Shown piece after piece: positions 6,101 through 36,319 of a stretch of DNA of 64,000 bases. The stretch is from contig JBGSUB010000067.1 in the NCBI GenBank assembly GCA_041753535.1, positions 138,017 through 202,016 of the forward strand. The letters are read 5' to 3'. The notes under the pieces are model-generated. The model was given only the letters and a program-made list of their open reading frames with translations, ran no database searches and was not told the DNA's origin. Within the stretch, counting starts at the first letter, position 1, and each line of letters begins with the position of its first letter. The translations under genes were made by a program, and so were the position numbers. Source of the DNA: Lentimicrobiaceae bacterium (lineage in GTDB: Bacteria > Bacteroidota > Bacteroidia > Bacteroidales > UBA4417).

Positions 6101-8389
6101 TTATTTTATCAGTTCAAAACCTGCTTCGAGACCACTTGCCGAATTGGTGCCAACATATACCTTAAAATCACCGGGTTCAGCCTTGAATTTCAACTCTGAA
6201 TTATAAAATGCAAGATCATCAGTTTTAAGAGTAAACGTAAGAGTTTTGCTTTCACCTGCTTTAAGGAATACTTTTTGAAATCCTTTCAGCTCTTTAACAG
6301 GTCGGGTAATACTTCCGACCATATCGTGGATATACAATTGTGCAACTTCAGTTCCATCGTATTTGCCTGTGTTTGTGAGCTTTACAGAAACAGTAATTGT
6401 CCCGTTCGCCGTCATTTTCTGTTTGTCAAGTTTCAGATCGCTATAGTTGAAAGCGGTATAACTTAGTCCATACCCGAAAGGATACAATGGTGCATTTTCC
6501 ACATCAAGGTAGCGACTTTTGTATTTATCGTTTTTGTTACCAACATAGGGCCGGCCTGTATTTTTGTGGTTGTAATAAATTGGAATCTGACCCACGTTAA
6601 CAGGATAAGTCATAGTGAGCTTTCCTGAAGGATTGTATTTCCCAAACAAAACATCTGCAACAGCATTTCCGGCTTCGGTTCCGCCATGCCACGCCTGAAG
6701 TATTGCAGGAACATTGGCAGCTTCGAATTCGAGCGTTAACGGACGACCACTCATGAGGACTAATACTACCGGTTTACCTGTTTTCAGCAGGGTTTTGAGA
6801 AGTTCAAGCTGACGGCCGGGTAATCCGATATCAGTACGGCTGGATGCTTCACCACTCAATTCTGCGGGTTCACCCAATACAGCAACGATGATATCAGCAT
6901 TAGATGCGGTATGATAGGCCTCGGTGATCATCTCATCGTCAGTTCGCGGATCTACATAATCAGCACCACTAATTCTTGATTGAAAAGCTTTGTCGGTAAG
7001 AAGGTTGCAGCCCATTGCATATTGAACTTTTGCGGAAGACCCAAGCAGCCCTTTCATTCCGCTTAGCACACTTATAGCATGAATTAAGTCGCCGGCAGCA
7101 CGCCACGAACCTATTAATTCGCGCTGGTTATCGGCTAAAGGGCCAATCAGAGCTATCTTTTTCGAAGGATCAAGCGGAAGCAGCTGATTGTCGTTTTTTA
7201 AAAGAACTATAGATTGTGCAGTAATATTACGGGCAGCTTTGCGGTTTTCGGGCGTAAGGATTTCATTTTTAGCTCTTTCATCATTAATGTAGCGATAAGG
7301 ATCGTTGAATAAACCCAGTTTATATTTGGCTTCCAATATCCGGCGGCAAGCATCATCAATGGTTTTCAGCGAAACTTTTCCCTCCTTAACCAATTCTTCG
7401 GTGTGTAAAAGGAAACCTTCGCCAACCATATCCATATCAATTCCTGCATTGAGAGCCAGTGCCGAAACTTCTTTCAAATCCTTACCAACGCCGTGTTCAA
7501 TCATTTCATTTATTGCAGTATAATCAGTTACCACGAAACCGCCAAATCCCCATTGTTTCCGCAGCAGATCGGTCATCAGCCATTTATTACCGGTTGCTGG
7601 AATTCCGTCAATTTCGTTGAACGAACTCATAGCACTGCCGGCACCGGCATTAAATGCTGCAAGATAAGGTGGCAGGTATTCGTTGTACATTCTTACCTTA
7701 CTCATATCCACCGTATTGTAATCGCGGCCAGCTTCGCCTGCTCCGTAAAGCGCAAAGTGTTTCACACATGCCATGATTGTATTGTTTTTACTGAGGTCGT
7801 CGCCCTGGTAACCTTTAACCATGGCAGCGGCAACTTTCGAACCCAGGAAGGGATCTTCTCCTGCGCCTTCAGCCACACGTCCCCAGCGTGGATCGCGGGC
7901 AATATCAACCATAGGACTAAAAGTCCAGTTAAGACCTTCGGCGGAAGCTTCCTGTGCAGCAATGCGTGCGCTTTGTTCAATCAGTTCCATATCCCAGGTG
8001 CAGGATAAAGCAAGAGGTATCGGAAAAATTGTTTTATATCCGTGTATCACGTCGAGGCCAAAGATCAGCGGTATTTTAAGGCGGTTTTCTTCGACTGCAA
8101 TCCGCTGAGCTTCGCGTATTCTAGGAATGGAAGTAATATTTAATACTCCGCCAACTTTTGCATCTTTTATTTTCTTCCCTACGTCGGAACTTGTTGATGC
8201 ACCAGTCGTAAAATCGCCCCCGGCAGGCAAATTCAGCTGACCGATTTTCTCATCAAGAGTCATTTTTTTCATCAGGCCGTCGATAAAGGGTTTCATCTTC
8301 GGATCAGCATGAGTGCTGCTAACCTGAGCTTTTACTAATGTTTGGCAGAAAATCAGAAGGCATCCGATTAGGAGAATAGGATATTTCAT
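6101..8389 (-). CDS. bglX: Periplasmic GH3 beta-glucosidase (BglX-like)
   Basis: 762 aa. Signal peptide MKYPILLIGCLLIFCQTLVKAQ. GH3 motifs KHFALYG and nucleophile region GFGGFVVTDY. C-terminal Fn3-like tail. Last gene of the locus. Confidence 0.9.
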   Translation of the reverse strand: MKYPILLIGCLLIFCQTLVKAQVSSTHADPKMKPFIDGLMKKMTLDEKIGQLNLPAGGDFTTGASTSSDVGKKIKDAKVGGVLNITSIPRIREAQRIAVEENRLKIPLIFGLDVIHGYKTIFPIPLALSCTWDMELIEQSARIAAQEASAEGLNWTFSPMVDIARDPRWGRVAEGAGEDPFLGSKVAAAMVKGYQGDDLSKNNTIMACVKHFALYGAGEAGRDYNTVDMSKVRMYNEYLPPYLAAFNAGAGSAMSSFNEIDGIPATGNKWLMTDLLRKQWGFGGFVVTDYTAINEMIEHGVGKDLKEVSALALNAGIDMDMVGEGFLLHTEELVKEGKVSLKTIDDACRRILEAKYKLGLFNDPYRYINDERAKNEILTPENRKAARNITAQSIVLLKNDNQLLPLDPSKKIALIGPLADNQRELIGSWRAAGDLIHAISVLSGMKGLLGSSAKVQYAMGCNLLTDKAFQSRISGADYVDPRTDDEMITEAYHTASNADIIVAVLGEPAELSGEASSRTDIGLPGRQLELLKTLLKTGKPVVLVLMSGRPLTLEFEAANVPAILQAWHGGTEAGNAVADVLFGKYNPSGKLTMTYPVNVGQIPIYYNHKNTGRPYVGNKNDKYKSRYLDVENAPLYPFGYGLSYTAFNYSDLKLDKQKMTANGTITVSVKLTNTGKYDGTEVAQLYIHDMVGSITRPVKELKGFQKVFLKAGESKTLTFTLKTDDLAFYNSELKFKAEPGDFKVYVGTNSASGLEAGFELIK

Positions 8390-8550
8390 CAGGGTTTGTT
8401 TTGGGATTTATTTTTAATGTTCACTAATTTTTAGTTTTTAAACGTTTAGGTAACAAAATTCTGCTTGTATTGAAATCAATCGGATTTAGCTATTGCGACT
8501 TAGTTTCTGAACGGTCTTCATGCAGCTTCAGGCATTACAAACAAAACTAA

Positions 8551-10710
8551 TCACTTACGTTCGATCAGCTTGGTTTCCGCATCAAGTTTCTTTAATCCGT
8601 TTTGAATTTCAGGGGTTTGCATAAAAATTTTCCAGATTAGCCCGGTGCGGTAGTTTTCGATCATCACTACCATCGGAGCCTGGTTAAGACCCATGTAAAT
8701 TTCGGAACACCAGTTATTTGTGAGATCAAAGGCATCTCTGAAACCATATTCACCCCAAAGGAATTTACCATAGTTATTATAATAGTTTTTAAGTGCTTTC
8801 ATGGATTCCTCGGGTGTGTACGGAAATGAACTGATGGCACCTGTTGGGGCAATTTTCCCGTAATCCTGCCAGGGGACAGGTTCATCCGCCGAATAATTAA
8901 AAGGTCCATCGCTTGCTGTTAATCCCCAGGCATTTTCGCCATAACCTTTAAAGTTTTTGGGATTTTGAACGCAATACAGGTAATTGATTTTTGCAATATT
9001 CTGATTGTTAACAAAGTAATTGGTGTACTTGTCAGTTATAAAATGCGGATCGTATCCCATATATGAATAATGTGTAAAGAATAGCGGGCCGCCATTTGAA
9101 ACACCAACATCGAGCTTAATTCCGAAATAGGTATTGCTGTTTGTGTACATTGAACCATCCACAGTTTGCCCCCAATTTGAGCGGTATCTGATTCCGGTGC
9201 TGTCCTGGTTTGCCCAGCCGGTATAGTATAGACTTGCGGGAATTGGGTGAGTAGGTGAAGCGATAGCCAGTAAATAAGTGACCATCGTTTCATTCCAGCC
9301 TATCAGATTGTGATTTATCACCCAGCCCTGGTCGGGAGACCAATGCCAATATAGGAATTTACTATCAGGATATTGCCTGAACCAATCCCATTCCGCTTTC
9401 TCCCAGATGGCGGTAATCTTATTTCTGATCAGTTCTTCCTGTTTGGTATTACCTGAAAAATACTGTCGTGCGGCCAGTAATCCCTGTAGTAGAAATGAAG
9501 TTTCAACCAGGTCGGCACCGTTATCGCGTTTTCCAAAAAACGGTTCCACCTTTCCGGTCGGGCCATCAATAAAATGTGGATATACTCCATGAAAGGTTTC
9601 AGCCTTTTCAAGGAAATTTACAATTTTAATAAAACGGGAAATTGATTCTTCCTTTGTGATAAAACCTCTTTCGGTCCCTGCAATCAGGGCCATAATCCCA
9701 AATCCTGACGCACCTGAAGCAATCATAGTATGCCTTCCCGGGATATTTTCTTTTGCTAATCCGCTGGTAGTTTCAGCAGCTTCCCAATAATACCGGAAAC
9801 TGGCTTCCTGTACCATGATAAGTAATTCATCATCGGTCATGGGTTTTGTTGAAATACTCACAGGAGTGGAGTGTTCAGTCTCCTCGTAACTGCTGTTCAA
9901 AAAGGAAATTTTGTAAAAATATTTTTTACCGGTTTCGCCGGTATAATCTGCATAACGGTGAATATACGGTTGCTGAATGCCAACAGGCTTGAAATCTTTC
10001 CCATTTTCAGAACGATAAATATTTACAAGGTGGATATTTTTATTGGTGATATTATCCCACGTAATATCAATATGTTTGGCATATCCAGTGGCTGATAGTA
10101 TCGCCGGAACTGTAGAAATTTTCGCGGAATTCACCGAGGGCAGAAATTCTATATCATCAACATAAATTACATTCTCCTTAGCCTCTTTTGCACTTTGCTG
10201 TGAAAAAACTATGGCAATACAATTTCCGGGTTGGTTTGCATCAATATCTTTAATTGTAGCCAGCGGAATAGTTACATGTTGCCACTGATTAACTTTTCCT
10301 GATGGGATTTCAAAAACCGATGTCAGGCTACTATCTTTTTTCATTAACTGAACAGCCGGTAATTCATCAGGAGATTTAGCATAAATCCAGAACAATAAAA
10401 ATTCCGCTTTTCTGAAATGATCCATACCTCGTTTTTCCTGTCGGTAAATTACGGCTTCCCAGTTTCCATTTGCAGCATTTTTGTACCTCAGTTCCAATGC
10501 ATTACCTGGAGTATGAAATATAGTATCGCTTACGGGAATTTTATCGATTATATTTTTTATAAATGAATCGCCACTACTACTTGTTTTGCTAAAGAAATAG
10601 TGACCAGGCATTGCACTGTTCGAGAACAAGGTATTTGTATATTCATACTCCTGTGCTGTTGTTGCAAGAGTAATGAGTATTAAATACGCAATCAGCCTGA
10701 TTCTTAACAT
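8551..10710 (-). CDS. GH144-family (Pfam Glycoamylase/DUF3131) putative endo-beta-1,2-glucanase with N-terminal CBM-like + Fn3-like modules
   Basis: The track ORF is 8551-10755. I prefer the internal ATG at 10710 because a signal peptide begins there (MLRIRLIAYLILITLATTAQ). The C-terminal domain shares a motif set with three paralogs in this window: FRYYWE, SGASGFGIMAL, FHGVYPHF, NGADLVETSFLLQGLL, YWHWSP, GWNE, FFTHYSYMGYDP, WGLTASDGP, FPYTPE, YGFRDAF, APMVVMIENYRTGLIW. Confidence 0.8.
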   Translation of the reverse strand: MLRIRLIAYLILITLATTAQEYEYTNTLFSNSAMPGHYFFSKTSSSGDSFIKNIIDKIPVSDTIFHTPGNALELRYKNAANGNWEAVIYRQEKRGMDHFRKAEFLLFWIYAKSPDELPAVQLMKKDSSLTSVFEIPSGKVNQWQHVTIPLATIKDIDANQPGNCIAIVFSQQSAKEAKENVIYVDDIEFLPSVNSAKISTVPAILSATGYAKHIDITWDNITNKNIHLVNIYRSENGKDFKPVGIQQPYIHRYADYTGETGKKYFYKISFLNSSYEETEHSTPVSISTKPMTDDELLIMVQEASFRYYWEAAETTSGLAKENIPGRHTMIASGASGFGIMALIAGTERGFITKEESISRFIKIVNFLEKAETFHGVYPHFIDGPTGKVEPFFGKRDNGADLVETSFLLQGLLAARQYFSGNTKQEELIRNKITAIWEKAEWDWFRQYPDSKFLYWHWSPDQGWVINHNLIGWNETMVTYLLAIASPTHPIPASLYYTGWANQDSTGIRYRSNWGQTVDGSMYTNSNTYFGIKLDVGVSNGGPLFFTHYSYMGYDPHFITDKYTNYFVNNQNIAKINYLYCVQNPKNFKGYGENAWGLTASDGPFNYSADEPVPWQDYGKIAPTGAISSFPYTPEESMKALKNYYNNYGKFLWGEYGFRDAFDLTNNWCSEIYMGLNQAPMVVMIENYRTGLIWKIFMQTPEIQNGLKKLDAETKLIERK

Positions 10711-10739
10711 AAGACGGTGTTTAGTTTCTTCAAGATATT

Positions 10740-12101
10740 TTATTTCTTTAGCCATGGACTGTCAAACTCAAGTTTCGCAAGGCCTTCAATCACTTCGGGA
10801 CAGCTCATAAACAGATTCCATAACAAGCCGCTCCTGTAATTTTCGATCATTACTATTTGCGGTCCCTGGTCTATGGCCAGATAATCAGTTGGATACCAAT
10901 CCTCCTCCTCGCTGAAAGCATCATAAAAACCATACTTCCCCCAGATTTTATCTCCTAGATTATAATAAAAATGCTTGAGTGCCTGCATCGAAAACTCAGG
11001 TGTATACGGAAATGATGACAAAGCCGCAGTAGGTGAAATTACGCCAAGATCATTCTTCAGACCTGGTGCATGAGCGCCATAAAACCTGGTTGAATAACTT
11101 GCAGTAAGTCCCCAGCAATTTTCGCCGTAACCTATGTAACCTTTCGGATTTTCGATGCACCATTGCCTGTTGATGAGTGTTTGGTTTTTGTTTTCATCCC
11201 AGTAATTCGCGTATCTGTCCTTCAGGTTCCGCGGATCGAGACCAAGGTATGAATAATGCGCCCAGAACAGAGAACCTCCGTACTCAGGATTATCATTATG
11301 TTTCAATGAAAGCGTATAGCCATACTTGGTGCTTTTGCCTTTGATACCGCCGTTTCTGGCCCAGCCCTTGTGGTATGTTTCAGCCTGAATGGGATAAGTA
11401 GGAGAGGAGGCAGCCATCACGTAAGTTATAAGGCATTCGTTGTAGCCTTCGACCTTGACATTCATTTTCCATCCTTTATCGGGCGACCAATGCCAGAACA
11501 TCACATCCTGTCCGCCTTGTGTAAACCACGACCATTCAACTTCCTTCCAAAGCTTGTCAATATCAGCAGCCAATTGTTTTTCAGCTTCATTCCCATCCTT
11601 AAAATACTGCCGCACACAGAGCAAACCTTGCATAAGGTATGCTGTTTCAACGATATCAGCTCCGTTGTCATTCGGACTGAAAGGCCTTACTTTTCCGGTT
11701 TCACCATACATCCAATGCGACCATGCACCATGAAACCGTTCCGATTTTGAAAGCCAGTCGACATTTTTTCTCAAATGACGAAATCCTTCGTCGCGGCTGA
11801 TAAACGTGCGTTCAATCCCGACAAGTATTGCCATAACCCCAAAACCGGAACCACCTGAAGTAATCACAGATTTGTCGTTTTCAGGATAATTACCATCAAG
11901 ATGGATGCGCTCACAAGCCAGTCCTGAAACAGGTTCGGCTCCTTCCCAAAAATATTGAAATGTATTGTACTGAACCAGGTTCAGTAGTGAATCGTCAGAG
12001 ATAACTGCGCGATTTTCCTGCACCGATATTTTCGCAGGCTGACTTTTACAAGCCAGGAAGCTGAATAAACTTAGAAATAGAACCAGTTTTAGAGTGTGCA
12101 T
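10740..12101 (-). CDS. GH144-family putative endo-beta-1,2-glucanase lipoprotein (catalytic domain only)
   Basis: 453 aa. Lipobox LFSFLAC. Motifs FQYFWEGAEPVSGLA, GGSGFGVMAI, RFHGAWSHW, NGADIVETAYLMQGLL, FWHWSP, GYNE, FWAHYSYLGLDP, WGLTAS, FPYTPE, YGFYDAF, IDQGPQIVMIENYRSGLLW. Confidence 0.82.
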   Translation of the reverse strand: MHTLKLVLFLSLFSFLACKSQPAKISVQENRAVISDDSLLNLVQYNTFQYFWEGAEPVSGLACERIHLDGNYPENDKSVITSGGSGFGVMAILVGIERTFISRDEGFRHLRKNVDWLSKSERFHGAWSHWMYGETGKVRPFSPNDNGADIVETAYLMQGLLCVRQYFKDGNEAEKQLAADIDKLWKEVEWSWFTQGGQDVMFWHWSPDKGWKMNVKVEGYNECLITYVMAASSPTYPIQAETYHKGWARNGGIKGKSTKYGYTLSLKHNDNPEYGGSLFWAHYSYLGLDPRNLKDRYANYWDENKNQTLINRQWCIENPKGYIGYGENCWGLTASYSTRFYGAHAPGLKNDLGVISPTAALSSFPYTPEFSMQALKHFYYNLGDKIWGKYGFYDAFSEEEDWYPTDYLAIDQGPQIVMIENYRSGLLWNLFMSCPEVIEGLAKLEFDSPWLKK

Positions 12102-12142
12102 CTGCTCCTTATTTTTAATTAAACACGAATTGAAAAGAAATG

Positions 12143-26986: not shown

Positions 26987-27027
26987 AAAAAAAAGGAGGG
27001 ATCAGGAAATCCCATCACCCTCCCTCC
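26987..27027 (-). terminator. Putative partial terminator/attenuator between the LamG lipoprotein gene and downstream enzymes
   Basis: The minus strand reads ggagggtgatgggatttcctgatccctcc followed by eight T. GC-rich pairing is GGAGGG/CCCTCC (6 bp) or GGGAT/ATCCC (5 bp). The stem is short but the U-tract is long. Confidence 0.4.
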
Positions 27028-29833: not shown

Positions 29834-32800
29834 TTAAAATGTTAAGTTTATACCAAAGGAATAAATCGCACTGATCGGATATATACCGGTATCAATACCG
29901 TTTGACAGTACATCGTTGCTGCCGATTTCGGGAGTATAACCTGTGAATTTGGATAAAGTGTAAATGTTGTTTCCCTTGATATACAAGCGGCATTGCTGCA
30001 TATGAATTTTATCGCTTATAACTTTTGGCAATGAATAGCCCAAAACAAGACTCCGCAGCCTTACAAACGATCCGTCCTGTATATATTTATCAGATGGAAT
30101 GTAGTTATAACCGCCGAATGTTGCTCTTGGTTCGCTATTGCTGGTTCCCGGACCGGTCCATCTATCCATAACGTGTTGTTCAAAATTGTAGGCATCAGGG
30201 CGCACAATTTCTTTGCCATTAAATATTTTATTCCCGGTTTGTCCCTGAATATTGAAAGAAAAGTCAAAATTATGGTAGGTGAGTTCCACGTTTAAACCAA
30301 AAATCATTTTTGGTATCGGGGAACCCAGGTCAGTTCTGTCATTTCCATCTATTACATTATCACCGTTAACGTCAACACGGCGAAGATCACCCACCTGGGC
30401 GTCACTTGTGTGCGGATATGCAGCAAGTTCATCCTGTGATTGGAAAATTCCATCGGTTTTATAACCCCAGAAGGAGCCTATCGGCAATCCTTCACGGCTT
30501 TGAGTTACATAACCATAAACATTTCCGCCAAAAAGTAATGAATCGATACCACTGTTGCCACCAACACTTAGTACTTCATTCTTGATAGTCGAAGCCAGAA
30601 TTCCAACACTGTAGCCTAATTCACCGATTTTGTCTCGCCAGTTGATATTCGCTTCCAAACCACTGTTAAGCACTTCACCTGCATTATAAGTAATTCGTTG
30701 TCCTTGCCCGTTGCCCAGATAACCGGGGGTAGAGAGCTCTACCAGGATATCATCGGTAATGCGTTGATAATAGTCAAATTCACCGGTAAGTCTGTCATTA
30801 AGCATGCCTATTTCCAGTCCTATATCTGTTTGGGTTGTTGTTTCCCATACAAGATCAGGGTTACCGCTTTTGGCATATGAAACTGCAGGGTATTGAATAT
30901 CTCCCTGTCCGAAAACAGCCATCAGGTTTTGAGTTAACGAAAACCGGTTTGTATACGCAATCTTTTCATTTCCTATCTTACCCCAGCTGGCGCGAAGTTT
31001 CAGTTTGTTTACTGTTGAGATACTTTGCATGAACTCTTCCTGAGATATATTCCATCCGGCTGCAAATGAAGGGAAATTACTGTAACGGTTTTCAACAGCA
31101 AATTTCGATGAACCATCGCGGCGGAAAGTGGCAGTAAGAATATATTTGTTGTTATAGGTATAGTTAGCCCGGAAAAGGTACGATAACATTGAATAGTACT
31201 GGTGCATATCAACACCGTTACTGAAATTGCCGTTTATTCCGCTGCCGAATAGATTGTTGTATTGCAAGTACCAGAAATCTTCGCCATCACGGATAATATT
31301 TTCACCTGAAGCATTCATGTATTCGGAAGTGGTATTCTGCATAGTATATCCTGCTACAGCATTGATTGAATGTTTTTCGATAACTTTACTATAGGTGAGC
31401 GTGTTTTCCCACAACCAGGTAAGGTTTTCAGATGTTCCTTTCGATAGGCTGCTTTTGGTATGTTTCTGAAGCGATTCAGTGCCATCATAGTAAAATACTG
31501 TATAGGCCGGTGAGAAGTTCTCATTTTTATTATAACCAGCATCAATACCAAAACTTGATTTTGCGGTAAATCCATCGAGGAAAGCTGCTTCAACAAATAA
31601 ATTTCCTACAGCTCGTAATCCTTTATTGAAACTGTTGTTGTATTCAATATCAGCAAGCGGATTGCCTACTCCCGGAACTCCTGCATAGCTTCCGTCAGCC
31701 CGGTATGGCTCAAGAGTTGGCCATGCACGGTAAACCTGAAAAGTAACTCCCGGTTCGTTTTGTTGCTTATAAGGGGAGATAGTAATATTATTTCCGAATT
31801 TGAAATGATTCGTCAGGTTGTATGTATTGTTGAATTTTAATGTAATGCGCTCGTAACCTGACTTGTCAACAATACCTTTCTGATTAAAATAACCGATACC
31901 TATATAATACTGTGTCTTTTTGGAAGATCCCCATGCTGACAGCTGATGATTGTTGATAGGTGTCGGGTTGAAAATAAGATCCTGCCAGTCGGTATTGGGA
32001 ACTGCATCAATATTATTGTAACTCGGATCACCGGGTATTTCGTTGGCAATAGTGGCAAATTCCTTTCCGTCGAGCAGATCAATCTGTTTAGCCAGATTTT
32101 GAATGCTGTACTCACCCGAATAGCTGAAATTGGTCTTCTCTTCACCTATAGTCCCGCTTTTAGTTGTGATAAGGATTACACCGTTTGCTCCCCGGGAACC
32201 ATACATTGCCGTTGCAGAAGCATCTTTTAATATTTCCATGGATTCAATATCGGCAGTATTCAGGAATGAAATATTATCTAAAATCACGCCGTCAACAACA
32301 TAAATAGGGGAGGAGTTATTAAAAGTTCCCACACCACGTATCCTTACTGAAGGAGTGGCACCGGGAGCTCCTGATGTGCTGGTAACCTGCACACCGGCGG
32401 CTTTCCCTTGTAAGCTTTGCTCCGCATTCAGCGAAGTGACTTTGGTGAGTTCCTTAGCCTTTACTGAACCAACTGAACCGGTGAGGTCACTTTTACGAAC
32501 AGTACCGTAACCGATTACTACCAACTCCGAGAGCATGACTTTGCTCGGCTCAAGCTCAATATTAAAGATGCTAAGAGTCCCAATTGCAACTTCCTGTGTT
32601 TCATAACCTACAAAGGAAATGGTTAAAATGGCATCAGTCGGATTAACTTCCAACGTAAATTTGCCGTCAATATCCGTTGATGTTCCCCTGCTGGTTCCTT
32701 TAATCGCTATTGTTGCACCTGGCAAAGTTTCCTTTGTGTCGGCAGCAGTGATAAGCCCTGTTACAGGTCTTGTCTGTGCAAATGATTGAACTGCAGAACC

Positions 32801-32875
32801 AAAGAATAGCAAAAGAATTAATGCTATTGCCCGGAAAGCAATTTTTAAATGATCTGATCGTAAAGTTTTCATCAT
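29834..32875 (-). CDS. SusC/RagA-family TonB-dependent transporter
   Basis: 1013 aa. Signal peptide, CarboxypepD_reg domain (VTGLITAADTKETLPGATIAIKG), TonB-box/plug region (ELVVIGYGTVRKSDLTGSV, ILKDASATAMYGSRGANGVILITTK), terminal ..FGINLTF. Confidence 0.93.
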   Translation of the reverse strand: MMKTLRSDHLKIAFRAIALILLLFFGSAVQSFAQTRPVTGLITAADTKETLPGATIAIKGTSRGTSTDIDGKFTLEVNPTDAILTISFVGYETQEVAIGTLSIFNIELEPSKVMLSELVVIGYGTVRKSDLTGSVGSVKAKELTKVTSLNAEQSLQGKAAGVQVTSTSGAPGATPSVRIRGVGTFNNSSPIYVVDGVILDNISFLNTADIESMEILKDASATAMYGSRGANGVILITTKSGTIGEEKTNFSYSGEYSIQNLAKQIDLLDGKEFATIANEIPGDPSYNNIDAVPNTDWQDLIFNPTPINNHQLSAWGSSKKTQYYIGIGYFNQKGIVDKSGYERITLKFNNTYNLTNHFKFGNNITISPYKQQNEPGVTFQVYRAWPTLEPYRADGSYAGVPGVGNPLADIEYNNSFNKGLRAVGNLFVEAAFLDGFTAKSSFGIDAGYNKNENFSPAYTVFYYDGTESLQKHTKSSLSKGTSENLTWLWENTLTYSKVIEKHSINAVAGYTMQNTTSEYMNASGENIIRDGEDFWYLQYNNLFGSGINGNFSNGVDMHQYYSMLSYLFRANYTYNNKYILTATFRRDGSSKFAVENRYSNFPSFAAGWNISQEEFMQSISTVNKLKLRASWGKIGNEKIAYTNRFSLTQNLMAVFGQGDIQYPAVSYAKSGNPDLVWETTTQTDIGLEIGMLNDRLTGEFDYYQRITDDILVELSTPGYLGNGQGQRITYNAGEVLNSGLEANINWRDKIGELGYSVGILASTIKNEVLSVGGNSGIDSLLFGGNVYGYVTQSREGLPIGSFWGYKTDGIFQSQDELAAYPHTSDAQVGDLRRVDVNGDNVIDGNDRTDLGSPIPKMIFGLNVELTYHNFDFSFNIQGQTGNKIFNGKEIVRPDAYNFEQHVMDRWTGPGTSNSEPRATFGGYNYIPSDKYIQDGSFVRLRSLVLGYSLPKVISDKIHMQQCRLYIKGNNIYTLSKFTGYTPEIGSNDVLSNGIDTGIYPISAIYSFGINLTF

Positions 32876-33053
32876 ACTATTGGTTGTTTGGTCGGTAAAT
32901 ATGATTTGAGATTTGGTTTTTGCTATAATAATAACATGCAGAAAGCTGATTAGTTGTTAAAGTTAAGCATAAATCAGCATGATCCCAACAATTCAATTGT
33001 ACTTTTTCGCAATTTTCCTGTACAAATAAACCAGCAAAATTCTTCATATCAAA

Positions 33054-33061
33054 CAAATTTA
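33054..33061 (-). promoter_or_regulatory. Candidate -7 box (TAAATTTG) for the susC operon
   Basis: This is the only TAnnTTTG match I found on the minus strand between susC and the regulator. It is ~180 nt upstream of the susC ATG, inside a ~600-bp AT-rich spacer. Confidence 0.3.
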
Positions 33062-33472
33062 AATTCATCACTATTACTTCATTAAATATGACAGTTAAAT
33101 GCGTACCTATACAATACTACTACATTATAATTGTATGCATTTGTAATAAATTGAAAAACAATATTATAGATTCTTTTTATAATATGAATTATTTTATATT
33201 TTTTTATAGTGAAAAGCAACAATGAGAAATAAGGTATTTATGTAGAACTGATTAGATTATAAATAATATATAATAATTAGTCGTTGAAAGTAAAATTATT
33301 TATAAAGAATAGGAATACTATCATTTTTTCAATTGAGAACTACAGGAAGTCCAAAATAGAGATTGATTTGAAATCATGAAAAATCTTCTTTTGTGAAGAT
33401 AACATAATAATTATTGAACTAATCTGTTAAATGAGGTAGTGATCCGGAATAATTGTCTGAAAAGTAATTATG

Positions 33473-36319
33473 TTAAAACTGCATAATGTATTCAACCAGG
33501 TTGTCATCGCCCGAAAGTGAAAGCCTTTTGCGTAAGCGGTAGCGACGAATCTCAACTCCACGTATGGAAATATTAAGCAATGGTGCAATTTCTTTCGACG
33601 ACAGGTTCAGTTTCAGGTAAGCGCACAATTTCAGATCGCTCTGAGTAAGATCGGGAAAGGAATGTTTCAATCGTTTAAAGAAATTTTCATGAGCCTGGTC
33701 GAACAGGGCTTCAAATATTTCCCAGTCGTTATCATTCGAAATATTTTTATCAATAAGTGTAGTCAACTTCTGCAGGTAACGCGCCGGGTAACGCGGCCCG
33801 AGTTCTTCTTTCTGTTTTTCAAGTTCCTGTTTAATTTCAATCAGAACTTCATTTTTTCGTATTATCGAAATGGTTGAGTCGGCAAGTTGCATGTTTTTAT
33901 GCGAAATCTCAGCTTGTAATTTGTCATTCTGTAACTTAATAATTTCCTGCTCAGCATGTTCTTTTTCGGTCTCACGCTTTTCATCAGCAAGGCGACGAAG
34001 ATTTTCATGCTGTTTCCTTAATCGTTTCCGAAACAAATACTGGCTGAGCAGAATCCCTCCCAGAGCTATTAGAATGTAAATTATTGTAGCAGGAACAGAT
34101 GCATACCACGGTGGTTTAACACTGAATTCGATAGTTGTGGGTTCTGTTACACCACCATTCCCGCTAAGGGTGCGCACTTTAAACTTGTATTTTCCAACAG
34201 GAAGCCGTGTATATTTAGCCTGATTATTTTCCGACCAATTGCTCCATCCGGCATCTATGCCTTCGAGCAGAAATTGATAAAGTTTCTTTGAACAGGGGTT
34301 TTTCAGGGATGAAAATGAGATTGAAATATTGTTGTAGGAATTTCTTAAAGAAAATGAAGTTGATTCCAGCCCGATGTTCTGCATTTCGCCATCTGCATTG
34401 CTGCATACAAATTCACGAAAAACCACTATCGGATCGGCTGCTCCTGTTTTTAGAAAGGTACGGTTAAATATAGCAAAACCATTATCAAGACATATTAAAT
34501 GCTGATACTCGTTTAAGGGGACAACATTCTCGTATCCATCTACTAAGCTTACTTTATACTGAGGAAGAATCAGCCGGTATTGGATTTCAGCTTTATTCCC
34601 GGAAATACTAAAAATAGCAGCTTCATCTCTGGTAACAAACCAATAGTTGTTTTCATCAATCCCCGAAATAAATGAAGCTGCCTGGAATCCATCCAACTTG
34701 TTGTTTAAATCGGAATAGGGGATTATTCTTTGATTCAGATCATCCCAGGTAAACAACTCACTTCCATTTGAAAATACTACCCGGTTGGCTATTTTGTAAA
34801 CCCGGATATTAAAGTCGGATGGCAAGCCGTCCTTTACCCCGTAAATGTATTTTTCTTTAACACTATCAAGTTTTGCCGATAGTCGTAGCCGGTACAATCC
34901 TTTTACAGCATGGCCTATCCATATATTTCCAAGGTGGTCGGCCTCAATAAAACGGGCTGGTTCAATAAATCCGTTTACCAGTTGGTGGAATTCCCAAGTG
35001 TTCCCTTTTTTTCTATAGATTACAAGATTTGAATACGTGCTTTGGATCAGAAATTCATCTCCTTTCAGATTGATTTTCTGGATCATATACCCACCACTCA
35101 CGTTCGATATCATCCGTAGTGAATTGTTATCGATCATGTAAGTTCCGCTTGTATGTCCGCAGAATAGTTCACCGTCAATTTCTTTGAGTTGCCATACCTG
35201 CCCTTGCGAATTCTTCAGAAAACCTTTGTAAATAAAGCGTTCACCAACTTCTGAGTATGTAAATATTCCACGGTTTGTACCCACAAATAAAGTGCCTTTC
35301 CAGAGAGCAGCAGTATAAACAGCGCCAAAAGCGTCGTTCCTTGCCGGGTATATTTCTACTGGGCTGGGAATGGTGATATTATCAACACCATTATCAAGCC
35401 CTACCCATATTCCTTGATTGTTATCGTTGCAAAGAGCCAGTACAGTATTATTCTGAAGGTCGTTTTCGCTGTTCAGATGGTTCAGTATTCTGCCATTGGT
35501 ATCAAGAATGAATAGCCCTTTTACTATGGTTCCGAAAACGATTTTATTGTCGAAAATTATCCCGTTATTGATCTGGAATTCCTTAAATAACGAATTAGCT
35601 TCTGTATTCCAGGGCGTTATGGTTTTTCCATCAAGGACAAACACCCCTTTTGAGGAAGTCCCAAGCAGAAACATGCCTTTTCTGTAGGGAAGTATTGTCC
35701 TTACTTCGGTTCCGGTTAAAACGCTGCTGTTACCAATGCTGATAAATTTATCGTTAATGATTTCGTACAATGTACCTTGAACTGCTTGTGCAAAAAGCCT
35801 GTTTCCGGCTTTTAAAAGGAACACTATAGTTCCCGGCAGTTGTATTGATTTTACAGTTTTGTGATCGTAAACAAACAAGCATGAAAATCCCTGGAAATAA
35901 ACTTTGTTTCCCAACTCAACAATTTTCCATATTTCATGATTGTGTAGATCGGGATTGTTCAGCAAGGGTACAAGTGAATAGTATTTCAATCCTTTTACTG
36001 CATCCTTTTTCCAGTATCCGAAATCTTCGTGTGAACCGGTGTAGATCAAATCGTCTTGACTACATGCAACTGAACGTAGTATCGTTCGCGAAGGGAGAGG
36101 AAATATTTTCCAGTTAACACCATCATAAACCATCAGCCCTTTATTGTTGGCAACATATACAAAGCCCTGCTTGTCCATATCCACCGACCAGTTCTGGCTT
36201 CCGGCGGCATACTGGTTGCGCGAATATTGAGTAACATGGTAGGAAGTCTGTGCCACAGTTATATTATGTGGAAAACAGAAAATGCTGCAGATAAAAAATG
36301 ATATAAAGGCCGTTCTCAT
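33473..36319 (-). CDS. Membrane-anchored one-component regulator: periplasmic beta-propeller/Y_Y_Y sensor + single TM + coiled coil + LuxR/GerE HTH
   Basis: 948 aa. Signal peptide. Repeated propeller-like segments (WVGLDNG, IWIGHAVKGLY). Y_Y_Y-like region (YQFLLEGIDAGWSNW.., KYKFKVR). TM helix VPATIIYILIALGGILLSQYLF. 185-aa cytoplasmic tail ending in the HTH LTQSDLKLCAYLKLNLSSKEIAPLLNISIRGVEIRRYRLRKRL. No HisKA, HATPase or REC motifs seen. Confidence 0.8.
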   Translation of the reverse strand: MRTAFISFFICSIFCFPHNITVAQTSYHVTQYSRNQYAAGSQNWSVDMDKQGFVYVANNKGLMVYDGVNWKIFPLPSRTILRSVACSQDDLIYTGSHEDFGYWKKDAVKGLKYYSLVPLLNNPDLHNHEIWKIVELGNKVYFQGFSCLFVYDHKTVKSIQLPGTIVFLLKAGNRLFAQAVQGTLYEIINDKFISIGNSSVLTGTEVRTILPYRKGMFLLGTSSKGVFVLDGKTITPWNTEANSLFKEFQINNGIIFDNKIVFGTIVKGLFILDTNGRILNHLNSENDLQNNTVLALCNDNNQGIWVGLDNGVDNITIPSPVEIYPARNDAFGAVYTAALWKGTLFVGTNRGIFTYSEVGERFIYKGFLKNSQGQVWQLKEIDGELFCGHTSGTYMIDNNSLRMISNVSGGYMIQKINLKGDEFLIQSTYSNLVIYRKKGNTWEFHQLVNGFIEPARFIEADHLGNIWIGHAVKGLYRLRLSAKLDSVKEKYIYGVKDGLPSDFNIRVYKIANRVVFSNGSELFTWDDLNQRIIPYSDLNNKLDGFQAASFISGIDENNYWFVTRDEAAIFSISGNKAEIQYRLILPQYKVSLVDGYENVVPLNEYQHLICLDNGFAIFNRTFLKTGAADPIVVFREFVCSNADGEMQNIGLESTSFSLRNSYNNISISFSSLKNPCSKKLYQFLLEGIDAGWSNWSENNQAKYTRLPVGKYKFKVRTLSGNGGVTEPTTIEFSVKPPWYASVPATIIYILIALGGILLSQYLFRKRLRKQHENLRRLADEKRETEKEHAEQEIIKLQNDKLQAEISHKNMQLADSTISIIRKNEVLIEIKQELEKQKEELGPRYPARYLQKLTTLIDKNISNDNDWEIFEALFDQAHENFFKRLKHSFPDLTQSDLKLCAYLKLNLSSKEIAPLLNISIRGVEIRRYRLRKRLSLSGDDNLVEYIMQF

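What the first reader, a model, noticed from the sequence alone, without database searches (positions are those of the whole stretch)
6101..36319. Thirteen-gene PUL predicted to target beta-1,2-glucan, joining a Sus-type surface/periplasmic GH144 system to a cytoplasmic GH94 phosphorylase + GH35 branch
Seen in the sequence:
- An uninterrupted minus-strand run of regulator, susC, susD, LamG lipoprotein, GH144 x2, the 1060-aa protein, GPH transporter, GH35, GH94, GH144 x2 and GH3.
- Most gaps are under 100 bp.
- The GH35 stop abuts the GH94 ATG (15485/15484).
- The only strong terminator follows GH3 (6044-6079).

Established knowledge, from memory:
- The founding GH144 enzyme (Pfam Glycoamylase/DUF3131) is the Chitinophaga pinensis endo-beta-1,2-glucanase.
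- The ~1100-aa GH94 members are 1,2-beta-oligoglucan phosphorylases (Listeria innocua Lin1839 type).
- GH3 BglX-type enzymes degrade sophorose.

Inference: signal peptides or lipoboxes are present on every GH144 copy, the 1060-aa protein and GH3, but absent on GH94 and GH35. This implies surface and periplasmic depolymerisation, GPH-mediated import, then cytoplasmic phosphorolysis. I am not aware of an experimentally described Sus-type PUL with this hybrid hydrolytic/phosphorolytic design for beta-1,2-glucan (cyclic glucans or osmoregulated periplasmic glucans (OPGs) of other bacteria would be the natural substrates).
Basis: partly seen in the sequence, partly recalled or inferred. Interest (0 to 1): 0.72.

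Follow-up and report, generated by a model that had tools for sequence, protein, structure and literature searches.

The report
Beta-1,2-glucan utilisation locus, one unknown enzyme
This is a 13-gene Bacteroidota gene cluster for eating beta-1,2-glucan, a sugar polymer made by other bacteria; its layout largely matches systems already proposed, but it carries a large, widely conserved, uncharacterised probable enzyme that deserves testing.

Summary
Window 6101-36319 holds 13 co-directional minus-strand genes, with a 14-bp-stem terminator after the last one.

By homology the genes are:
- a BguR-type one-component regulator, SusC, SusD and a LamG surface lipoprotein;
- four GH144 enzymes: three CpSGL-type, one of them full-length like the BDI_3064 sophorohydrolase, and one XcSGL-type;
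- a BT_3567-like GH3;
- an MFS/GPH permease;
- a GH35 that is an IaSGT-type beta-1,2-glucosyltransferase, not a galactosidase;
- a GH94 that is a true 1,2-beta-oligoglucan phosphorylase, with all 14 checkable LpSOGP residues conserved.

Its novelty is overstated. GH144 PULs are reported as very common, BguR regulators are already linked to them, and a hybrid hydrolase/phosphorylase cluster with the same GH35 was described in Ignavibacterium album in 2022.

The new element is the 1060-aa protein "X". It is secreted and carries two CBM-like domains. Its core models confidently (pLDDT 91.7) as beta-sandwich plus (alpha/alpha)6 barrel, GH94/GH15/GH116-like, at 10-13% identity. It has no significant sequence match to any solved structure and reaches no Pfam family threshold.

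X homologues occur in at least 596 species. A GH144 gene lies directly upstream in 55 of 70 loci, and fusions to GH144 or SGNH esterases exist. X is a candidate new beta-1,2-glucan-related glycosidase family.

The parts
33473..36319 (-). BguR-type membrane-spanning one-component regulator (948 aa). It has a signal peptide, a beta-propeller/Y_Y_Y periplasmic sensor, a single TM at aa 740-758, a coiled linker and a C-terminal LuxR/GerE-like HTH. No kinase or receiver domain is present.
   Evidence: Pfam Y_Y_Y E 2.1e-10 and Reg_prop. Weak GerE (E 0.043) and Sigma70_r4_2 at aa 905-943, and no HisKA, HATPase or REC hit even at E<=10. NCBIfam LuxR-type response-regulator C-termini and the BT3442 family. 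Hydropathy scan. The architecture matches BguR, which the authors found associated with GH144 PULs.
32876..33472 (-). 597-nt AT-rich intergenic region between the regulator and susC. Presumed promoter/operator region of the structural genes.
   Evidence: Gap size and sequence. A TAAATTTG match to the Bacteroidota -7 box consensus (TAnnTTTG, from my own knowledge) lies at 33061-33054 on the minus strand. This is a single motif match and was not tested.
29834..32875 (-). SusC-like TonB-dependent transporter (1013 aa)
   Evidence: Pfam CarbopepD_reg_2, Plug and TonB_dep_Rec_b-barrel. The 5-nt gap to susD.
28341..29828 (-). SusD-like lipoprotein (495 aa)
   Evidence: Pfam SusD_RagB E 4.1e-36 and SusD-like_3. 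Lipobox LSGC.
27048..28295 (-). Surface lipoprotein with Big_5 and Laminin_G_3 domains (415 aa). Candidate surface glycan-binding protein.
   Evidence: Pfam. N-terminus ...MNSC-KDDD, a Cys followed by acidic residues typical of surface-exported Bacteroidota lipoproteins (that rule is from my own knowledge). It is syntenic after SusD in many related loci.
24994..26967 (-). Big_5 + GH144 (657 aa), CpSGL-type. Candidate surface endo-beta-1,2-glucanase.
   Evidence: PF10091 E 8.2e-73 plus Big_5. PDB 5gzh endo-beta-1,2-glucanase E 1e-155. Lipobox ...YSC-KEDN.
23498..24895 (-). GH144 (465 aa), XcSGL-type. It is a divergent paralogue, 28-30% identical to the other three, and is the conserved upstream partner of X.
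   Evidence: PF10091 E 1.7e-70. PDB 8xul XCC2207 E 1.4e-106. Paralogue identities. It lies directly upstream of X in 55 of 70 loci. Lipobox VSGC.
20111..23293 (-). Protein X (1060 aa). It has a signal peptide, a CBM11-like beta-sandwich (aa ~27-170), an F5/8-type-C (CBM32-like) domain (193-302), a beta-sandwich (~345-560), an (alpha/alpha)6 barrel (~576-955) and a C-terminal beta-sandwich. Candidate periplasmic glycosidase of an undescribed family.
   Evidence: Pfam and NCBIfam. AF2 core model pLDDT 91.7, pTM 0.93. Foldseek against GH94, GH15-like, GH116 and GH65: E down to 2e-18, TM 0.5-0.6, 10-13% identity. No significant PDB sequence match for the barrel. Sub-threshold GH15, GH78 and GDE_C Pfam hits in 17, 14 and 8 of 21 homologues. 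Family size and synteny.
17993..20089 (-). MFS_2/GPH-type permease (698 aa). A ~200-aa hydrophilic insert (aa ~431-640) precedes the last TM helix. Candidate inner-membrane importer of sophoro-oligosaccharides.
   Evidence: PF13347 E 7.5e-67. TIGR00792 at 160 bits, below its 231-bit cut-off. Hydropathy scan. The length is conserved: median 690 aa among the 43 loci whose MFS ORF exceeds 600 aa (range 622-704; a few are cut by a contig end), at 62-88% identity.
15485..17917 (-). GH35 IaSGT-type beta-1,2-glucosyltransferase homologue (810 aa), cytoplasmic. It carries about 120 extra C-terminal residues compared with IaSGT.
   Evidence: PDB 7vkw beta-1,2-glucosyltransferase E 1.1e-154 over aa 7-687, against 1e-25 for beta-galactosidases. 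IaSGT residues L100, E102, E176, E343 and R349 are conserved in the printed alignment (residue roles). No signal peptide.
12143..15484 (-). [quoted passage not shown] Its start codon abuts the GH35 stop.
   Evidence: Pfam SOGP_N, SOGP_2nd, Glyco_hydro_94 and SOGP_4th. PDB 5h3z E 1.5e-177 over the full length. LpSOGP residues N138, Y141, Q621, G623, A626, R630, D631, W758, D760, R907, R916, E917, Y922 and H924 are conserved (roles).
10740..12101 (-). GH144 (453 aa), CpSGL-type lipoprotein
   Evidence: PF10091 E 3.2e-81. 58% identical to the 657-aa copy. Lipobox FLAC.
8551..10755 (-). GH144 with a ~290-aa N-terminal domain (734-aa ORF; the probable start is Met16 at 10710). Full-length homologue of the BDI_3064 sophorose-releasing exo-enzyme.
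   Evidence: PF10091 E 1.6e-67. PDB 5z06 BDI_3064 E 1.8e-247 over aa 38-726. The signal peptide begins at Met16, and the ORF overlaps the upstream gene by 16 nt.
6101..8389 (-). GH3 beta-glucosidase (762 aa), periplasmic, BT_3567/Lin1840-like
   Evidence: Pfam GH3 N-terminal, C-terminal and Fn3-like domains. PDB 5xxl (periplasmic beta-glucosidase; I take this entry to be BT_3567 from my own knowledge) E 9.7e-295, and 4zoa Lin1840 E 4.5e-181. Signal peptide.
6045..6078 (-). Intrinsic-terminator-like hairpin closing the operon
   Evidence: 14-bp stem, 6 G-C pairs and a T-rich tail. It is the strongest site in the region.

Best explanation
The locus is a beta-1,2-glucan utilisation locus of a Bacteroidales-like bacterium. 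It appears to work in three compartments. Every step below is inferred from homology and signal sequences; none was assayed.

(1) Cell surface. The Big_5-GH144 lipoprotein cuts linear or cyclic beta-1,2-glucan. The LamG lipoprotein and SusD bind the fragments, and SusC imports them.

(2) Periplasm. A BguR-type regulator senses the oligosaccharides and activates transcription directly. Two further endo-type GH144s (one CpSGL-type, one XcSGL-type), the BDI_3064-like enzyme (which releases sophorose), the BT_3567-like GH3 (which releases glucose) and protein X shorten the chains. X is predicted to be a secreted (alpha/alpha)6-barrel glycosidase with two carbohydrate-binding-like modules. It acts together with the XcSGL-type GH144, either on a bond or decoration that GH144 cannot handle, or as a second depolymerase.

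(3) Cytoplasm. The insert-bearing MFS permease imports sophorose or short sophoro-oligosaccharides. SOGP phosphorolyses DP>=3 chains to glucose-1-phosphate plus sophorose.

The GH35 gene abuts the SOGP start codon (gap 0). Its product may solve the problem that SOGP does not act on sophorose. The transferase would convert 2 Sop2 to Sop3 + Glc, and SOGP would convert Sop3 + Pi to Sop2 + Glc-1-P. The net reaction is sophorose + Pi giving glucose + glucose-1-phosphate. This last cycle is my inference, not a published or tested result.
For: Gene identities:
- Four GH144 copies by Pfam. Three of the four were compared with solved structures and match characterised GH144 enzymes; the 453-aa copy rests on Pfam and its 58% identity to the 657-aa copy.
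- SOGP by full-length match and 14 of 14 visible key residues.
- IaSGT-type GH35 with its catalytic residues conserved.
- GH3 nearly as close to 5xxl as to its best hit.
- A SusC/SusD pair.

Compartment assignment comes from the N-termini.

Regulator architecture equals BguR, which is reported to be consistently associated with GH144 PULs.

Operon structure: short gaps, one strong terminator, and abutting GH35/GH94 genes.

Conservation:
- 33 of 54 related loci with enough downstream flank have X-MFS-GH35-GH94 in this exact order.
- 27 of 58 with enough upstream flank have SusC/D.
- 71 of 82 carry a GH144.
- Distant phyla combine X with GH144, or with GH94-domain proteins, Sopn-type ABC transporters and GH1.

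Biochemistry from the literature: IaSGT disproportionates Sop2-5 by single-glucose transfer and prefers Sop2 as donor. SOGP acts on DP 3 or more (abstract of PMC5309861).
Against: - No expression, growth or enzyme data exist for this organism.
- IaSGT has very high Km values for Sopn as acceptors (120-300 mM for Sop2 and Sop3). Its authors favour aryl- or alkyl-glucosides as the natural acceptors, which weakens the proposed Sop2-recycling cycle.
- A periplasmic GH3 could already finish degradation to glucose, making the cytoplasmic branch partly redundant.
- In Bacteroides xylanisolvens a GH144 PUL contains a GH35 that turned out to be a beta-1,2-galactosidase. GH144 context therefore does not guarantee a pure beta-1,2-glucan substrate.
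- Signal-peptide and lipoprotein calls were made by eye.
- The substrate range of the MFS permease is unknown.
- The role of X is inferred only from fold, conservation and synteny.
Confidence: 0.8

Rival explanations
1. The true substrate is not plain bacterial beta-1,2-glucan. It could be a decorated or mixed glycan or glycoside that contains beta-1,2-glucosyl units. Candidates are succinylated, acetylated or phosphoglycerol-substituted cyclic glucans, branched OPGs, alpha-1,6-closed cyclic glucans, sophorosides, or an unknown environmental heteroglycan. X and the GH35 would then supply the specificity for the non-canonical part.
For: - X is fused to SGNH esterases in several homologues, and an esterase gene follows X in I. 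album.
- An acetyl-esterase sits in the S. griseus Sopn cluster.
- The GH144 PUL of B. xylanisolvens contains a beta-1,2-galactosidase.
- Marine GH144 PULs carry sulfatases, which suggests decorated substrates.
- The fold relatives of X include alpha-glucan-active GH15-type enzymes.
Against: - No esterase, sulfatase or non-glucose CAZyme lies within 6101-36319.
- Every identifiable enzyme has its closest characterised homologue acting on undecorated beta-1,2-glucan or Sopn.
Confidence: 0.15
2. X is not an enzyme. It would be a non-catalytic carbohydrate-binding or scaffolding protein that presents beta-1,2-glucan chains to the neighbouring GH144.
For: - X has two N-terminal CBM-like modules.
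- It reaches no catalytic-family threshold.
- It is always paired with a bona fide glucanase, and sometimes fused to one.
Against: - The barrel region is the most conserved part of the protein. Invariant residues across sequences 33-56% identical to the window protein are R630, Y632, W636, R638, D639, E687, D689, H757, E758, Y760, H766, W769, D770, D832, Y883, E884, R886, E921, D935 and H938.
- These residues map to the loops just before alternate barrel helices in the model. That is where (alpha/alpha)6 glycosidases build their active site (my own knowledge of the fold).
- The R-D pair parallels the R630-D631 subsite -1 residues of LpSOGP.
- In locus L084, X-SGNH is the only candidate depolymerase, next to an ABC transporter and a GH1.
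Confidence: 0.15
3. The cytoplasmic GH35 + GH94 pair works anabolically. It would build beta-1,2-glucosides or oligosaccharides from glucose-1-phosphate, for example as osmolytes or signals, rather than catabolise imported sugar.
For: SOGP reactions are reversible and are used synthetically (abstracts of PMC3960220 and PMC11975218). IaSGT is a pure transferase without hydrolytic activity.
Against: The pair is embedded in an operon with an importer, degradative enzymes and SusC/D, under one substrate-sensing regulator. The same module is conserved with depolymerases in many genomes.
Confidence: 0.05

Closest known systems
Ignavibacterium album SGL/IaSGT gene cluster (IALB_1177-1187; Kobayashi et al. 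2022, PMC8861115)
   Same: - The cluster has a TonB-dependent outer-membrane transporter, several GH144s (one of them directly upstream of an X homologue, P0348, 55% identical), a GH35 beta-1,2-glucosyltransferase and an inner-membrane importer. The GH94-type phosphorylase homologue (IALB_1177) is named only in the paper.
- The published model already combines extracellular and periplasmic hydrolysis with cytoplasmic phosphorolysis.
   Different: - I. album uses an ABC transporter with a Sopn-binding protein instead of the long MFS permease.
- No SusD or BguR-type regulator was seen in the fetched stretch.
- An esterase gene sits between X and GH35.
- Its phosphorylase is described as a homologue of the SOGP domain of cyclic glucan synthase, not an LpSOGP-type enzyme.
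- X is one of the genes drawn as 'function difficult to predict'.
- Only IaSGT was characterised.
GH144-containing PULs of Bacteroidota (PULDB; Lapebie et al. 2019, PMC6499787), including the B. thetaiotaomicron SGL cluster with BT_3567
   Same: SusC/SusD plus GH144 plus GH3. These are reported among the most frequently encountered PUL types and are predicted to target beta-1,2-glucans. The GH3 here matches 5xxl at E 9.7e-295.
   Different: The descriptions found do not mention the cytoplasmic MFS-GH35-GH94 branch or protein X. No paper in the searchable library combines GH144, GH94 and PUL in this sense.
Listeria innocua lin1839-1841 and Lachnoclostridium phytofermentans SOGP systems
   Same: An SOGP with the same key residues, together with a GH3 beta-glucosidase that prefers sophorose.
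   Different: These are Gram-positive systems with ABC import. They have no outer-membrane stage, no GH144, no GH35 and no X.
BguR laminarin-PUL regulator of Formosa agariphila (bioRxiv 10.64898/2026.01.10.698779)
   Same: About 940 aa, with a signal peptide, tandem propellers, Y_Y_Y, one TM and a GerE-type HTH, and no phosphorelay domains. It is encoded directly upstream of susC. A clade of homologues is associated with GH144 PULs.
   Different: The HTH here is only weakly recognised by Pfam GerE (E 0.043). The published binding motif is available only as a figure, so it could not be searched for. The ligand here would be beta-1,2- rather than beta-1,3-glucan.
GH94 / GH15 / GH116 / GH65 six-hairpin enzymes (fold relatives of X)
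   Same: Beta-sandwich plus (alpha/alpha)6 barrel plus C-terminal beta-sandwich. Foldseek gives E 2e-18 to 1e-12 and TM 0.43-0.60. An R-D pair sits at a barrel-helix N-terminus, as in LpSOGP R630/D631.
   Different: - Sequence identity is 10-13%.
- No significant HMM match to any PDB sequence.
- Pfam GH15, GH78 and GDE_C hits are all sub-threshold.
- hhalign against the SOGP in the same locus gives probability 2.6%.
- X is secreted, unlike known GH94 and GH65 phosphorylases.

Membership tests
GH144 (endo-beta-1,2-glucanase family; Pfam PF10091) | Match to the family model above the curated threshold | tested here: met
   All four ORFs score 227-272 bits against a 27-bit cut-off.
GH144 | Close similarity to biochemically characterised members (CpSGL, XcSGL, BDI_3064) | tested here: met
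   5gzh at 1e-155 (657-aa copy). 5z06 at 1.8e-247 over the full length (734-aa copy). 8xul at 1.4e-106 (465-aa copy). The 453-aa copy is 58% identical to the 657-aa copy.
GH144 | Conservation of the catalytic residues (for example the CpSGL general acid E211) and activity on beta-1,2-glucan | not tested
   No CpSGL-numbered alignment was made. Activity cannot be tested with these tools.
[quoted passage not shown] | SOGP-specific domain architecture, including the extra N-terminal beta-sandwich | tested here: met
   Pfam SOGP_N 187 bits, SOGP_2nd 168 bits, Glyco_hydro_94 59 bits and SOGP_4th 40 bits, all above cut-off. 5h3z aligns with aa 12-1102.
GH94 SOGP | Catalytic acid D760, the subsite -1/+1/+2 residues and the phosphate-site residues of LpSOGP | tested here: met
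   N138, Y141, Q621, G623, A626, R630, D631, W758, D760, R907, R916, E917, Y922 and H924 are all identical in the alignment (residue list). Y1004, S1005 and S1006 lie in the part of the alignment that was cut off.
GH94 SOGP | Closer to SOGP than to cellobiose, cellodextrin or chitobiose phosphorylases | tested here: met
   E 1.5e-177 against 1.6e-9 or weaker. No tree was built.
GH35 beta-1,2-glucosyltransferase (IaSGT type) | Closest characterised relative is IaSGT rather than a beta-galactosidase or glucosaminidase | tested here: met
   7vkw at 1.1e-154 over aa 7-687. GlmA-type entries at about 1e-57 to 1e-64. Beta-galactosidases at about 1e-25.
GH35 IaSGT type | Nucleophile E343 and acid/base E176, plus E102, L100 and R349, which shape donor and acceptor preference | tested here: met
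   The motifs ILAEY, CNEIGVF and AAEFQxGxRE are conserved in the printed alignment. Transferase activity itself is not testable here.
GH3 beta-1,2-glucan-associated beta-glucosidase (BT_3567 / Lin1840 type) | GH3 N-terminal, C-terminal and Fn3-like domains, with close similarity to the two characterised enzymes | tested here: met
   Pfam. 5xxl at 9.7e-295 and 4zoa at 4.5e-181. Linkage preference is not testable here.
Polysaccharide utilisation locus (Sus-like system) | Adjacent susC-like and susD-like genes with co-directional CAZyme genes | tested here: met
   SusC at 29834-32875 and SusD at 28341-29828, 5 nt apart, followed by 10 co-directional genes.
BguR-type one-component regulator | Signal peptide, propeller plus Y_Y_Y sensor, single TM, and no HisKA, HATPase or REC domain | tested here: met
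BguR-type one-component regulator | [quoted passage not shown] | tested here: inconclusive
   GerE scores only E 0.043, 13.9 bits against a 23.5-bit cut-off. Weak LuxR-type NCBIfam hits support it. The motif sequence is not given in the text of the preprint.
GPH (glycoside-pentoside-hexuronide) cation symporter | Match to the family models | tested here: inconclusive
   Pfam MFS_2 at 226 bits, above its 27-bit cut-off. NCBIfam TIGR00792 at 160 bits, below its 231-bit cut-off. An atypical ~200-aa insert precedes the last TM.
GH15 / GH78 / GH133 / GH94 (for protein X) | Sequence-model match at family threshold | tested here: not met
   - The window protein has no catalytic-domain Pfam hit.
- TIGR01577 scores 22 bits against an 820-bit cut-off.
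- Among 21 homologues, the GH15, Bac_rhamnosid6H and GDE_C hits have best E-values of 1.7e-4, 5.4e-8 and 1e-3.
- There is no PDB sequence match.
- hhalign against SOGP gives probability 2.6%.
Six-hairpin (alpha/alpha)6 glycosidase fold (for protein X) | Beta-sandwich plus (alpha/alpha)6 barrel architecture in a confident model, with fold matches to known glycosidases or phosphorylases | tested here: met
   Model pLDDT 91.7 and pTM 0.93, with 13 helices between aa ~576 and 955. Foldseek top 50 are all GH94, GH15-like, GH116, GH65, GH78, GH133 or GH142-type enzymes.

The most novel reading that the evidence does not exclude
Protein X (20111-23293) may found a new glycoside hydrolase or transglycosylase family dedicated to beta-1,2-glucan metabolism. 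It would be a secreted, CBM-bearing (alpha/alpha)6-barrel enzyme, conserved at 33-86% identity in the sequences examined, from MAGs assigned to Bacteroidota, Ignavibacteria, Calditrichia, Verrucomicrobiota, KSB1, Anaerolineae and others. It would act with XcSGL-type GH144 on a step that no known enzyme covers. Examples are a decorated, branched or alpha-1,6-closed cyclic glucan, or a distinct exo or endo cleavage mode. Together with the insert-bearing MFS permease and the abutting GH35-GH94 pair, it would define a conserved five-gene module (GH144-X-MFS-SGT-SOGP) that has not been described.
Probability: 0.5. Interest if true: 0.72.

Novelty: new variant of a known kind. Interest (0 to 1): 0.55.

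Why it matters
Beta-1,2-glucans (cyclic glucans and osmoregulated periplasmic glucans) are symbiosis, virulence and osmoprotection factors of many Proteobacteria. How they are turned over in soils, sediments and guts is poorly known.

The enzymology has been built one gene at a time from clusters like this one. Each neighbouring gene examined so far has yielded a new activity or a new CAZy family: SOGP, GH144, the sophorohydrolase, IaSGT and GH192-194.

This locus shows the complete Bacteroidota version of the pathway. It also flags the one conserved core gene that is still unassigned. X homologues were found in at least 596 species genomes and form about 980 clusters at 50% identity, so characterising X would annotate thousands of genes. 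It could also reveal which natural form of the glucan is really being eaten.

The proposed SGT+SOGP sophorose-recycling cycle would explain why a puzzling transferase is welded to a phosphorylase. It is directly testable with existing reagents.

Tried and rejected
- Sequence searches of X against all PDB chains. The single sequence, a 53-sequence profile and a barrel-only 21-sequence profile found only the CBM32-like and CBM11-like modules. Nothing significant was found for the barrel.
- A full-length AF2 model of X from 30 close homologues was poor (pLDDT 64.9). It was replaced by a core model built from a more diverse alignment obtained through a profile search.
- hhalign of X against the locus SOGP gave a collinear but non-significant alignment (probability 2.6%). 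I do not claim homology to GH94.
- Identifying the source organism failed. An exact look-up of X found no gene record, and the cluster listing carried no names. The closest genomes are uncultured Bacteroidota/Bacteroidales MAGs at 80-81% identity.
- The BguR operator motif is given only as a figure in the preprint, so it could not be scanned. A repeat search of the regulator-susC spacer failed on a strand-format error and was not repeated.
- The GH89 gene at 36496-39381 was considered as part of the locus. I rejected it provisionally, because it has an unrelated activity and no counterpart in any related locus. The flanks of those loci seldom reach that far.
- The idea that the GH35 is a beta-galactosidase, as in the B. 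xylanisolvens GH144 PUL, was rejected on similarity and active-site residues.
- The sigma-70 promoter scan is uninformative: the counts equal the shuffled expectation, and Bacteroidota use other promoters.
- Literature searches for GH144+GH94+PUL, for IALB genes, and for 2025-26 beta-1,2-glucan enzymes found no description of X or of this PUL variant. The library is incomplete.

Full report
**1. The observation**

The ORF list shows 13 consecutive minus-strand ORFs between 6101 and 36319. The intergenic gaps, from GH3 upstream, are 161, -16, 41, 0, 75, 21, 204, 98, 80, 45, 5 and 597 nt. The GH35 stop and the GH94 start abut at 15485/15484. The strongest terminator-like hairpin in the region has a 14-bp stem and a T-run. 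It lies at 6078-6045 on the minus strand, right after the last gene. Base composition is even, at 0.37-0.44 GC, so nothing suggests a recent insertion.

**2. Gene identities**

Pfam and comparison with solved structures give the following assignments.

| Coordinates | Size | Assignment | Key evidence |
|---|---|---|---|
| 6101-8389 | 762 aa | GH3 | 9.7e-295 to 5xxl (periplasmic beta-glucosidase, which I take to be BT_3567) and 4.5e-181 to Lin1840 |
| 8551-10755 | 734 aa | GH144 with extra N-terminal domain | Matches the BDI_3064 protein over its full length (5z06, 1.8e-247) |
| 10740-12101 | 453 aa | GH144, CpSGL-type | PF10091 E 3.2e-81 |
| 24994-26967 | 657 aa | Big_5 + GH144, CpSGL-type | 5gzh, 1e-155 |
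| 23498-24895 | 465 aa | GH144, divergent paralogue | 28-30% identical to the other three; closest to Xanthomonas XcSGL (8xul, 1.4e-106) |
| 12143-15484 | 1113 aa | GH94, SOGP | SOGP-specific Pfam domains; LpSOGP (5h3z) from residue 12 to 1102 at 1.5e-177 |
| 15485-17917 | 810 aa | GH35, IaSGT-type | 7vkw, 1.1e-154 |

The two characterised GH3 relatives belong to beta-1,2-glucan clusters. The BDI_3064 protein is the Parabacteroides distasonis enzyme that releases sophorose from sophoro-oligosaccharides (function as cited).

For the GH94, cellobiose and chitobiose phosphorylases score only 1e-9 or weaker. In the printed alignment, all 14 LpSOGP residues that can be seen are identical. These are N138, Y141, Q621, G623, A626, R630, D631, W758, the catalytic acid D760, R907, R916, E917, Y922 and H924.

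The best relative of the GH35 is the Ignavibacterium album beta-1,2-glucosyltransferase IaSGT, whereas beta-galactosidases score about 1e-25. The IaSGT nucleophile E343, acid/base E176, and E102, L100 and R349 are all conserved. The GH35 is thus a transglycosylase homologue, not a galactosidase.

**3. Transport, binding and regulation**

SusC (29834-32875) and SusD (28341-29828) are 5 nt apart. The next gene encodes a Big_5 + Laminin_G_3 lipoprotein.

The permease (17993-20089) is MFS_2/GPH-like but 698 aa long. It has eleven hydrophobic segments, then a ~200-aa hydrophilic K/E/Q/L-rich insert, then a last TM helix. This length is conserved: the median is 690 aa in 43 related loci, at 62-88% identity.

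The 948-aa regulator has a signal peptide, Reg_prop and Y_Y_Y domains, one TM helix (aa 740-758) and a C-terminal LuxR-like HTH. It has no kinase or receiver domain. This is the architecture of BguR, a membrane-spanning one-component activator of a laminarin PUL described in a 2026 preprint. Its authors note that a clade of homologues is consistently associated with GH144 PULs.

**4. Compartments**

The N-termini were read by eye.

- The 657-aa GH144 and the LamG protein have a lipobox Cys followed by acidic residues (CKEDN, CKDDD). This is typical of surface-exposed Bacteroidota lipoproteins (from my own knowledge).
- The 453- and 465-aa GH144s have lipoboxes without that acidic stretch.
- X, GH3 and the 734-aa GH144 (from Met16) have SPI-type signals.
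- GH35 and GH94 have no signal.

**5. The cytoplasmic pair**

SOGP acts on DP 3 or more (abstract of PMC5309861). IaSGT transfers single glucose units between sophoro-oligosaccharides and prefers sophorose as donor.

I therefore propose a two-enzyme cycle for the abutting GH35 and GH94:
- GH35: 2 Sop2 gives Sop3 + Glc.
- GH94: Sop3 + Pi gives Sop2 + Glc-1-P.

This would let the cell phosphorolyse sophorose, the product of the BDI_3064-like enzyme. The cycle is an inference. IaSGT has very high Km values for Sopn acceptors, and its authors prefer glucosides as natural acceptors, which counts against it.

**6. Protein X (20111-23293, 1060 aa)**

*Sequence searches.* Pfam sees only an F5/8-type-C domain at aa 193-302. 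PDB sequence searches add a CBM11-like stretch at aa 27-169 and nothing for the C-terminal 750 residues, even with profiles.

*Structure.* A model of residues 320-1060, built from a 70-sequence alignment, is confident (pLDDT 91.7, pTM 0.93). It shows a beta-sandwich, a 13-helix (alpha/alpha)6-type barrel and a C-terminal beta-sandwich. Foldseek matches GH94 phosphorylases, a GH15-like dextran dextrinase and glucodextranase, GH116 beta-glucosidases and GH65. E-values reach 2e-18, TM-scores are 0.5-0.6, and identity is 10-13%.

*Weak family signals.* Sub-threshold Pfam hits to GH15, to the GH78 six-hairpin domain and to GDE_C recur in 17, 14 and 8 of 21 homologues. The window protein gives a faint GH15-type NCBIfam hit.

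*Conserved residues.* Across sequences only 33-56% identical to the window protein, many charged and aromatic residues are invariant. These include R630, R638-D639, E687, D689, H757-E758, D770, D832, E884, R886, E921, D935 and H938. They fall just before alternate barrel helices in the model, which is the usual catalytic face of this fold.

I conclude that X is probably an active, secreted six-hairpin glycosidase or transglycosylase. It is not a member of any family whose threshold I could test.

**7. Context of X elsewhere**

*Family size.* The family is large. There are 982 clusters at 50% identity with E<1e-30. At least 596 species genomes encode a relative.

*Synteny.* tblastn of the window proteins against 82 X-bearing loci gave these counts.

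| Feature | Count |
|---|---|
| XcSGL-type GH144 directly upstream of X | 55 of 70 loci with enough upstream flank |
| Any GH144 in the locus | 71 of 82 |
| X-MFS-GH35-GH94 in exactly this order | 33 of 54 loci with enough downstream flank |
| SusC/D upstream | 27 of 58 loci with enough upstream flank |

*I. album.* In I. album JCM 16511 the X orthologue (P0348, 'putative secreted protein') lies inside the published IaSGT cluster. The order there is TonB-dependent transporter, two unknown genes, GH144, X, esterase, IaSGT, GH144 with a T9SS tail, and an ABC transporter. The paper's supplementary figure marks the unassigned genes as 'prediction of functions is difficult'.

*Fusions.* One fusion joins GH144 to X (P0110, 1516 aa). 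Several join X to an SGNH esterase (about 1260 aa).

*Other phyla.* In locus L084 an X-SGNH fusion is followed by a solute-binding protein, two permeases and a GH1. This mirrors the Streptomyces griseus cluster of a GH193 beta-1,2-glucanase, an ABC transporter, a GH1 and an acetyl-esterase. In MAGs assigned to Anaerolineae and another lineage, X sits among GH144, Sopn-type ABC transporter genes, GH94 and GH1. A Lentimicrobium genome has the five-gene module without SusC/D in the 10 kb fetched upstream.

X is therefore a core, unassigned component of beta-1,2-glucan loci in many phyla. The esterase links hint that the natural substrate may be acylated.

**8. Comparison with what is known**

GH144-containing PULs are reported as among the most frequent PUL types, and they are predicted to target beta-1,2-glucans. 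A hybrid hydrolytic/phosphorolytic model was drawn for I. album in 2022. BguR-type regulators are already tied to GH144 PULs.

I could not find three things in the searchable literature:
- a description of the Bacteroidota variant that joins SusCD to the GH144-X-MFS-GH35-GH94 module;
- any function for X;
- any mention of the insert-bearing permease.

The library is incomplete, and CAZy could not be queried.

**9. Verdict**

Nothing has been tested experimentally.

As a system, this is a new variant of a known kind and not a new kind. The interest lies in X, and to a lesser degree in the GH35-GH94 coupling and the unusual permease. Overall interest is 0.55.

Noticed in passing
window 17993-20089: The MFS/GPH permease carries a ~200-aa hydrophilic, K/E/Q/L-rich (coiled-coil-like) insert between the 11th hydrophobic segment and a final TM helix (aa 642-660). 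The long form is conserved: median 690 aa among the 43 related loci whose MFS ORF exceeds 600 aa. It always follows X. Its function is unknown.
   Followed up: partly
window 49950-59696: A dense phosphate-acquisition cluster on the minus strand. It comprises a histidine kinase, an OmpR-type response regulator, a PstS-like binding protein, two PHO4 transporters, a Na/Pi cotransporter with a PhoU domain, and a PhoU_div protein. One PHO4 protein is 758 aa long with only its N-terminal 334 aa matched. No link to the phosphorylase locus was shown.
   Followed up: no
window 36496-39381: A secreted GH89 alpha-N-acetylglucosaminidase with Fn3_assoc, CHB_HEX_C and F5/8-like C-terminal modules lies 176 nt upstream of the regulator on the same strand. 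Its activity is unrelated to beta-glucan, and no counterpart was seen in related loci.
   Followed up: partly
window 26998-27013: A short hairpin plus T-run lies in the 80-nt gap after the LamG lipoprotein gene. It may be a partial terminator that separates susC-susD-SGBP from the enzyme genes.
   Followed up: no
window 10710-10755: The 734-aa GH144 ORF overlaps the upstream GH144 gene by 16 nt. Its signal peptide starts only at Met16, so the real start is probably at 10710, leaving a 29-nt gap.
   Followed up: partly
L001 17814-19802 (Lentimicrobium sp. MAG): A GH172-family gene is inserted between GH35 and GH94 in an otherwise identical GH144-X-MFS-GH35-GH94 module. That module has no SusC/D in the 10 kb fetched upstream.
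   Followed up: no
L002 4282-8832; L084 3447-7253; L083 13226-13957: Natural fusions exist of GH144 with X (1516 aa) and of X with an SGNH/GDSL esterase (about 1260 aa). A separate alpha/beta-hydrolase esterase gene lies directly after X in Ignavibacterium album. Together these suggest an acylated natural substrate.
   Followed up: partly
window 23498-24895 versus 8551-12101 and 24994-26967: The four GH144 copies fall into two deeply split types. One is XcSGL-like (8xul). Three are CpSGL-like and share 44-58% identity with one another but only 28-30% with the first. Only the XcSGL-like type is the conserved neighbour of X.
   Followed up: yes
window 15485-17917 (aa ~690-810): The GH35 is about 90-120 residues longer at its C-terminus than IaSGT. 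Only a weak BetaGal_dom2 hit (E 1.6e-4, below threshold) covers this extension.
   Followed up: no
window 188-2350 and 46956-49778: Two further CarboxypepD_reg-containing outer-membrane proteins have no adjacent SusD. The second has an OMP_b-brl_3 barrel and is followed by a Porph_ging-family gene.
   Followed up: no
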